From Mobula hypostoma (taxonomy: Eukaryota), in NCBI RefSeq assembly GCF_963921235.1, contig NC_086097.1:40426001-40490000 (forward strand): a stretch of 64,000 nucleotides of DNA, written 5' to 3'. The notes beneath the pieces are model-generated. The model saw nothing but the letters and a program-made list of their open reading frames with translations. It had not been told where the DNA came from and did no database searches. Of this stretch, positions 43,366 to 43,998 are shown one piece after another (positions within the stretch are counted from its first letter, which is position 1; the number at the start of each line of letters is the position of its first letter). Both the position numbers and the translations under genes were made by a program.

Positions 43366-43998
43366 CAAGACACACAAAATGCTGGTGGAATGCAGCAGGC
43401 CAGGCAGCGTCTCTAGGAAAAGGTACAGTCGACGTTTCGGGCCGAGACCCTTCGTCAGGACTAACTGAAAGAAGAGATAATAAGAGATTTGAAAGTGGGA
43501 GGGGGAAGGGGAGATCCAAAATGATAGGAGAAGACAGGAGGGGGAGGGATGGAGCTAAGAGCTGGAAAGTTGATTGGCAAAAGGGATACGAGGCTGGAGA
43601 AGGGAGAGGATCATGGTTCGGGAGGCCGAGGGAGAAAGAAAGGGGGAGGGGAGCACCAGAGGAAGATATAGTGAGAGGGACAGAGGGAGAAAAAGAGAGA
43701 GAAAGAAAGGGAAAAAATAAATAAACAAACAAACAAACAAATAAATAAATAAGGGATGGATAAGAAGGGGAGGAGGGGCATTAATGGAAGTTAGAGAAGT
43801 CAATGTTCATGCCATTAGGTTGGAGGCTACCCAGGCGGAATATAAGGTGTTGTTCCTCCAACATGAGTGTGGCTTCATCTTGACAGTAGAGGAGGCCATG
43901 GATAGACATATCAGAATGGGACGTGAAATTAAAATGTGTGGCCACTGGGAGGCCCTGCTTTCTCTGGCGGGCAGAGCGTAGGTATTCAGTGAAACGGT
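43366..43998 (-). mobile_element. Penelope-like element 3' fragment
   Basis: 10-bp TSD ctacttatag (43356-43365, 43999-44008); highly similar to the 27616 copy; GIY-YIG C-terminus LEEQHLIFRLGSLQPNGMNIDF. Confidence 0.88.
43427..43462 (-). ncRNA. Minimal type-I hammerhead ribozyme motif
   Basis: AGUC CUGACGA A GGG-UCUCGG-CCC GAAAC GUC GACU; all core nucleotides intact. Confidence 0.78.

What the first reader, a model, noticed from the sequence alone, without database searches (positions are those of the whole stretch)
43427..43462. Intact minimal hammerhead ribozyme motif in a Penelope-like terminus
Seen: the minus strand reads AGUC-CUGACGA-A-GGG(UCUCGG)CCC-GAAAC-GUC^GACU, with the CUGANGA and GAAA core, a GUC cleavage triplet, stem I AGUC/GACU, and stem III reduced to a palindromic ACGU. 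Known: Penelope-like elements carry minimal type-I hammerheads that are thought to cleave as dimers. Inference: this ray-type family encodes such a ribozyme, and this copy may still be active.
Basis: partly seen in the sequence, partly recalled or inferred. Interest (0 to 1): 0.75.

Follow-up and report, generated by a model that had tools for sequence, protein, structure and literature searches.

The report
Minimal hammerhead in truncated Penelope retroelement
The flagged 36 bases are an intact minimal hammerhead ribozyme motif at the end of a lone, truncated Penelope-like jumping gene of a ray-type family; this kind of motif is already described, and this partnerless copy is likely silent.

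Summary
Confirmed. Window 43427-43462 (minus strand) is a minimal type-I hammerhead: CUGACGA core, extra A, stem II, GAAA, palindromic ACGU in place of stem III, GUC cut triplet, stem I. It sits 322 nt behind the stop of a GIY-YIG endonuclease fragment in a 628-bp, 5'-truncated Penelope-like insertion (43371-43998) with a 15-bp target duplication. The closest protein relatives are from rays and carry the Neptune-type linker. Two distant Penelope families hold a same-length motif at the same place, with two compensatory changes in stem I, so the family motif looks selected for structure. This is the arrangement described in 2014 (PMC4209133). 'This copy may still be active' is weak: it has no tandem partner and no upstream repeat, the monomer is predicted to fold its core onto the cut site, published monomers do not cut, and variation among relatives is CpG decay. 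No raw RNA reads were available to test cleavage. The scan has already noted this family many times in this genome and once in a shark. New member of a known kind; low interest.

The parts
43427..43462 (-). minimal type-I hammerhead motif; predicted cut between 43431 and 43430
   Evidence: matches the min-HHR description in PMC4209133
43371..43998 (-). 5'-truncated Penelope-like insertion, 628 bp, one hammerhead, no upstream repeat
   Evidence: bounded by a target duplication; 86% identical to the copy near 27.6-28.2 kb
43781..43998 (-). C-terminal half of the GIY-YIG endonuclease with its stop; the GIY-YIG motif itself and all of the RT are missing
   Evidence: (79% to P0002 residues 296-371)
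43463..43780 (-). pyrimidine-rich 3' untranslated stretch between the stop and the motif
   Evidence: sequence; 322 nt from stop to core
43371..43426 (-). segment past the cut site up to the element's 3' end; this copy lacks the optional tail of about 35-40 nt seen in two other window copies
   Evidence: loose-end piles at 43370 and 43364 in all 4 runs (table 7)
43356..43370 (.). left copy of 15-bp target site duplication (14 of 15 identical)
43999..44013 (.). right copy of the target site duplication
27715..27750 (-). second intact minimal hammerhead (differs only in 2 letters of loop II), 15.7 kb away, in a sister insertion (about 27616-29158) whose endonuclease piece is split by an inserted LINE fragment
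59521..59655 (+). 135-bp insertion of the same family that begins inside the 5' strand of stem I; core broken; 13-bp target duplication
47516..47721 (.). decayed head-to-head inverted pair of termini of a related subfamily, both cut inside the motif
37413..37499 (-). decayed terminus with broken motif

Best explanation
The motif is the minimal hammerhead in the 3' end of a Penelope-like retrotransposon of likely Neptune type, carried along in a lone 5'-truncated insertion where it is likely silent. In the parent element it would work as described for this class: two copies in one tandem transcript pair through their ACGU palindromes and swap stem I strands to make a double hammerhead that cuts after GUC, likely slowly and likely with help from the element's protein (inferred from PMC4209133 and PMC11167929, not shown here). 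Reverse transcription started about 60 nt past the cut site, so the RNA that made this copy held the motif uncut at that place (inferred from the copy's 3' end), and stopped in the endonuclease region. Shown here: sequence, position, target duplication, family, conservation of the core and stem I covariation in two distant families. Predicted: the monomer folds as a rod that pairs core GACG with CGUC. Not shown: transcription of this locus, any cleavage.
For: Motif and place. Solo insertion with 15-bp duplication. Relatives with RT, CX4CxxC linker, GIY-YIG and CCHH residues. Of 6 loci found with the family alignment in genome contigs, 5 reach the ORF end and all 5 carry a 36-nt motif about 100-130 nt behind it on the sense strand; they are two distinct sequences (L003-L006 identical, with U4 changed to C; L008). 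Against the two ray copies: core and palindrome kept, 2 stem I pairs changed on both sides, 2 stem II pairs changed on one side with pairing kept, 93% of cells paired versus 17-47% for slid controls. Identity to c43 is 24-25 of 36 in the motif, 7-17 of 36 in four flanking 36-mers. In 4 public runs 38,698, 46,309, 6,669 and 9,941 contigs lie on 331 bases; depth peaks over the motif in 3 runs and just beside it in the fourth, and loose ends pile at 43462 in 3 of 4 runs and at 43425 in 3 of 4, the motif's borders. Monomer rod with P 0.98-1.0; active dimer about 9 kcal/mol above two monomers. The 4 listed variant places inside the motif are all CpG transitions, at 3-23% of depth with one value of 60%, as expected for decaying genomic copies.
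Against: The covariation rests on two independent families and 4 distinct rows; 16 of 500 shuffles reach the observed score and 344 of 500 reach 2 doubly changed pairs, so it is suggestive, not strong. The outer two stem I pairs are not kept in the distant families (3 bp there). One search showed only 40 of 149 variant rows and 24 of 1,288 loose-end rows, lays only contigs at least 80% alike, and none of the runs is shown to be this species (best share of words 0.38). Nearest-neighbour energies omit tertiary contacts and magnesium, and I had no proven-active minimal motif as a control. This copy keeps all 5 CpG pairs of the motif while differing from the majority at 7 or more flanking places, which selection could also explain; chance is enough by rough arithmetic (about 0.85^10 = 0.2). 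Neptune versus Nematis was not tested with a tree.
Confidence: 0.85

Rival explanations
1. This copy is active in vivo: when a host or read-through transcript crosses it on the minus strand, it pairs with another copy (the one 15.7 kb downstream, or any of the many transcribed family copies in trans), perhaps helped by Penelope protein, and cuts the transcript.
For: Perfect core and stems; second intact same-strand motif at 27715-27750; thousands of family contigs in two runs guessed to be RNA.
Against: No host gene recognised in the frames tried; predicted locked monomer; published dimers are weak even in tandem (PMC4209133); no RNA ends at the cut site for the anole element (PMC11167929); trans pairing would rest on a 4-bp palindrome plus short stems.
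Confidence: 0.08
2. In this family the motif is kept mainly as a structural signal (the closed rod as a protein-binding site or a reverse-transcription stop or switch point), and cleavage is vestigial.
For: The rod pairing GACG/CGUC is predicted in all 7 motif copies folded; insertions keep the motif uncut; one window copy starts at the outer edge of stem I and loose ends pile at 43462; catalytic mutants did not affect insertion in vitro for the anole element (PMC11167929).
Against: The rod follows automatically from a CG palindrome plus GUC; two other minimal motifs in L003 (4739) and L004 (2187) have other palindromes and would pair the core less well; unpaired core letters that only catalysis needs (C3, A9, A13, A14) are kept across families; the 43462 pile also holds subfamilies with other upstream sequence.
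Confidence: 0.06
3. Chance resemblance to a hammerhead in a repeat.
For: No Rfam match; folding z-score -0.96.
Against: Shuffle controls; same motif at the same place in distant families with unlike flanks.
Confidence: 0.01

Closest known systems
Minimal type-I hammerheads (min-HHR) of metazoan Penelope-like elements, Cervera and De la Pena 2014, PMC4209133 (read: parts 1-2 of 4)
   Same: [quoted passage not shown]
   Different: Cartilaginous fishes are not named in the parts I read; stem II is 4 bp, shorter than the 7-8 bp of the Schistosoma families.
Poseidon element PAc of the green anole, Frangieh et al. 2024, PMC11167929 (read: parts 1-2 of 4)
   Same: Hammerhead upstream of the reverse-transcription start; genomic copies extend past the cut site; optional 30-40 bp tail.
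   Different: PAc is Penelope/Poseidon clade (no CX2-5CxxC linker) and its ORF starts within the motif; the ORF start of this family was not found.
Neptune (or Nematis) clade of endonuclease-bearing Penelope-like elements, as defined in Craig et al. 2021, PMC8557442 (read: passages)
   Same: Relatives have RT, then a CX4CxxC linker, then a C-terminal GIY-YIG nuclease with CCHH residues.
   Different: This copy holds only the last 72 codons; clade placement rests on motifs in relatives, not on a tree.
Non-LTR retrozymes of animals (PMC7229834, passages; bioRxiv 10.64898/2026.07.22.740005, part 1 of 5 and passages)
   Same: Type-I hammerhead, link to Penelope repeats; one chondrichthyan genome is reported to hold them.
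   Different: Retrozymes are non-coding tandem repeats; this copy is single and carries coding sequence.

Membership tests
min-HHR (type I) | conserved core CUGANGA ... GAAA ... UH | tested here: met
min-HHR (type I) | open stem I of 4-5 bp and a closed stem II with G10.1-C11.1 and one extra nucleotide before it | tested here: met
min-HHR (type I) | stem III reduced to a palindrome (no monomer stem III) | tested here: met
   ACGU at 43435-43432; kept in 4 of 4 distinct rows
min-HHR (type I) | covariation of stems across families | tested here: met
   2 doubly changed pairs in stem I, 2 one-sided in stem II; only two independent families, 16 of 500 shuffles as high
min-HHR (type I) | self-cleavage as a dimer | not testable with these tools
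   needs a bench assay; all 24 listed runs are contigs
min-HHR (type I) | tandem partner for this copy | tested here: not met
   one motif between target duplications; nearest intact motif 15.7 kb away. Lowers 'active here', not 'is a min-HHR'
EN+ Penelope-like element | RT followed by C-terminal GIY-YIG nuclease with CCHH residues | tested here: met
   in relatives 70-81% identical to the window fragment; GIY-YIG Pfam scores 18.8-20.9 lie just under the 22.6 cut-off; the window fragment alone has no Pfam hit
EN+ Penelope-like element | hammerhead in the 3' terminal repeat on the sense strand, optional tail, inverted truncated partners | tested here: met
EN+ Penelope-like element | full pLTR-ORF-pLTR structure | tested here: inconclusive
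   no full-length copy in the window; no genome held
Neptune clade | CX2-5CxxC linker between RT and nuclease | tested here: met
   C317-C321-x-x-C324 nearly invariant in alignment A2; shared with Nematis per PMC8557442
Neptune clade | groups with Neptune references in an RT tree | not testable with these tools
   no named reference sequences were returned by any search
Non-LTR retrozyme | non-coding tandem repeat with a hammerhead in each unit | tested here: not met
   no tandem array at the locus; coding fragment present
Rfam hammerhead families | covariance-model score at gathering threshold | tested here: not met

The most novel reading that the evidence does not exclude
The minimal hammerhead of this ray family is a self-locking switch: its core pairs with its own cut triplet, and Penelope protein or a second copy unlocks it, so the very many dispersed solo copies act as conditional cut sites in host transcripts whenever the element is expressed.
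Probability: 0.07. Interest if true: 0.6.

Novelty: new member of a known kind. Interest (0 to 1): 0.13.

Why it matters
As it stands it adds a cartilaginous-fish family to a class described in 2014, and the scan has noted the family many times. What these motifs do in living cells is still open. The family's great abundance in rays would make it a good system for a genome-wide test (cyclic-phosphate end sequencing), but this single copy does not make the question more testable than any other copy.

Tried and rejected
No genome held, so no own-genome census. Rfam: nothing. Viral contigs: 0 matches to the motif pattern, no relatives by protein. Metagenome contigs with a tail pattern: 2 loci, both unrelated chance matches in GC-rich DNA. 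No RNA holder listed; two runs guessed to be RNA are contigs and cannot show RNA ends; table 6 was empty. No pile at the cut site among the 24 loose-end rows shown of 1,288; too partial to count as absence. Read-through peptide searches: none at E<=1; 4 hits in the representative library, 2 real read-throughs with the same motif reading (P0137, P0138) and 2 unrelated repeats; they add no covariation. Host gene: none of 10 candidate frames hit Pfam, and the repeat frame gave only sub-cut-off hits, so I cannot say whether the copy lies in an intron. Lunse et al. (PMC5785218) is not held; seen only as cited in PMC6765202 and PMC6466107. PMC6155905 seen only as a search listing. L007 was dropped from the covariation count because it lacks the ORF's 3' end; L004-L006 were left out of alignment A3 as identical to L003.

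Full report
Observation. It has the hammerhead core CUGACGA, one extra A, stem II, GAAA, the palindrome ACGU where stem III would be, the GUC triplet (cut predicted between 43431 and 43430) and stem I. Folding draws stem II as 4 bp and lets stem I extend to 5 bp by a U-G pair. The core pattern occurs twice in the window (43432-43458 and 27720-27746) against 0.01 expected; a descriptor with free stems finds the same two places against 0.03 expected, 1 of 100 resamples reaching two. Rfam has no match.

What carries it. The motif lies in a 628-bp insertion, 43371-43998 on the minus strand, bounded by a 15-bp duplication with one mismatch. Its 5' part codes the C-terminal half of a nuclease, 70-81% identical to five Mobula and Hypanus proteins among 19 hits. 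Those and further relatives in whale shark, bamboo shark, zebra shark, corals and molluscs (315 hits, 120 listed) show RT motifs, a CX4CxxC linker, GIY-YIG and CCHH residues (26 of the listed proteins were aligned). By the definitions in PMC8557442 (passages) this is an endonuclease-bearing Penelope-like element of Neptune or Nematis type; Neptune is the likelier for a fish (PMC4209133 names Neptune in fishes), but no tree was possible. The stop lies 322 nt before the core, and the element ends about 60 nt past the cut site. The window holds 11 remnants of such termini at E<0.005, six of them used to build the profile; 2 of 11 have an intact motif. They show the known traits of the class: 5' truncation, optional tail, a head-to-head inverted pair.

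Abundance and decay. No genome was held. Laid on 43330-43660 at 80% likeness, four public runs of four coded organisms gave 38,698, 46,309, 6,669 and 9,941 contigs; these are not copy numbers, and no run is shown to be this species. Summed depth is highest over the motif in 3 runs and just beside it in the fourth. Loose ends pile at 43370 and 43364 (element 3' ends, 4 of 4 runs) and at 43462 and 43425 (motif borders, 3 of 4 runs), where another subfamily shares the motif but not its flanks. Of 149 variant rows 40 were shown; the 4 inside the motif are all CpG transitions, at 3-23% of depth and one at 60%. Two hit G12 and C17, where changes impair hammerheads (recalled), so many genomic copies decay freely. 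This copy differs from the majority at 7 or more flanking places, so it is not a brand-new insertion; keeping all its CpG pairs is within chance (about 0.2 by rough arithmetic on upward-biased rates).

Covariation. A scan of genome contigs with the family alignment gave 6 loci at 40-47% protein identity, in two assemblies labelled as bacteria and likely holding animal DNA (inference). Five reach the ORF end, and all five carry a 36-nt motif about 100-130 nt behind it on the sense strand: four identical copies with U4 changed to C, and one with the full core. Against the two ray copies, two stem I pairs change on both sides and two stem II pairs change on one side with pairing kept; 93% of cells pair, against 17-47% for slid partners, and 16 of 500 shuffles score as high. 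The motif is 24-25 of 36 identical, the flanks 7-17 of 36. A zebra shark protein that reads through its 3' end has a stretch compatible with the core at the same place.

How it most likely works. PMC4209133 (parts 1-2 of 4; 2 supplementary files searched, file 1 not searchable) defines these minimal motifs, finds them in fish Xena, Poseidon and Neptune elements and mostly as single motifs on truncated copies, and reports no cleavage by a monomer and low cleavage by dimers. PMC11167929 (parts 1-2 of 4) shows for an anole element that cleavage needs the element's protein, is not needed for insertion in vitro, leaves no RNA-seq ends at the cut site, and that reverse transcription starts downstream of the motif. 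The present copy fits: it runs past the cut site, so its template was uncut there (inference). Folded alone, the motif forms a rod that pairs core GACG with CGUC (P 0.98-1.0), and the active dimer lies about 9 kcal/mol above two monomers, without tertiary terms. With no tandem partner, no upstream repeat and no RT, this copy is likely silent. Its sequence could still cut weakly in an engineered tandem dimer. Nothing here tests transcription or cleavage: all listed runs are contigs.

Novelty. The class is known. Six literature searches found no paper on this ray family; a 2026 preprint (10.64898/2026.07.22.740005, part 1 of 5 and passages; supplements not seen) reports hammerhead retrozymes in one chondrichthyan genome. 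Lunse et al. was not held, and it, the unseen supplements or repeat databases may already list this family. The scan's own notes hold 81 matching entries in this genome (8 shown) and one in a shark; these are unchecked notes and agree with the reading reached before I saw them. Verdict: observation confirmed, family assignment right, activity of this copy unlikely; new member of a known kind, interest 0.13.

Noticed in passing
window 43366-43465, run X22 (table 5c): Several contig joints go from 43452-43465 back to 43366-43385, and from 43460-43462 back to 43426-43430. They may be head-to-tail tandems of the motif-plus-end unit or of the motif alone (retrozyme-like, dimer-ready); the kind of joint is not printed for these rows.
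   Followed up: no
window 59508-59668: 135-bp family insertion with a perfect 13-bp target duplication that begins at the outer edge of stem I, not at the cut site.
   Followed up: partly
window about 21858-30484: Nested repeats: an LTR element with repeats 93% alike and integrase- and chromodomain-like frames (label recalled) holds a LINE piece near 24.3-26.1 kb and the Penelope copy at 27616-29158, which itself holds a LINE fragment at about 28175-29046.
   Followed up: partly
window 55030-55182 (-): Decayed nuclease fragment of a more distant Penelope-like family (36-41% to ray proteins).
   Followed up: partly
window 40819-40952, 58075-58285, 62490-62528: Older decayed termini of related subfamilies, two as head-to-head pairs.
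   Followed up: no
window 50387-51387: 27-bp minisatellite, 37.5 copies, with long open frames on both strands; no Pfam family above cut-off.
   Followed up: partly
window 52755-54770: Broken frames that look like a pogo/Tigger-type transposase (label recalled, not tested).
   Followed up: no
L003 2615, L004 4119, L005 1991, L006 2062: A Penelope family whose minimal hammerhead has C at core position 4 in 4 of 4 copies, a fixed core variant.
   Followed up: partly
L003 4739 and L004 2187/295: Further minimal hammerheads of other families with different palindromes (UA; CAUG), one present as an inverted pair.
   Followed up: no
L003-L008: Penelope-like elements in two assemblies filed as bacterial genomes, likely animal DNA carried into the bins.
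   Followed up: no
P0004, P0007, P0014, P0015, P0020, P0137, P0138: Annotated ray or unnamed proteins that include pieces of this repeat family's reading frames, either mis-annotation or exonised repeats.
   Followed up: no
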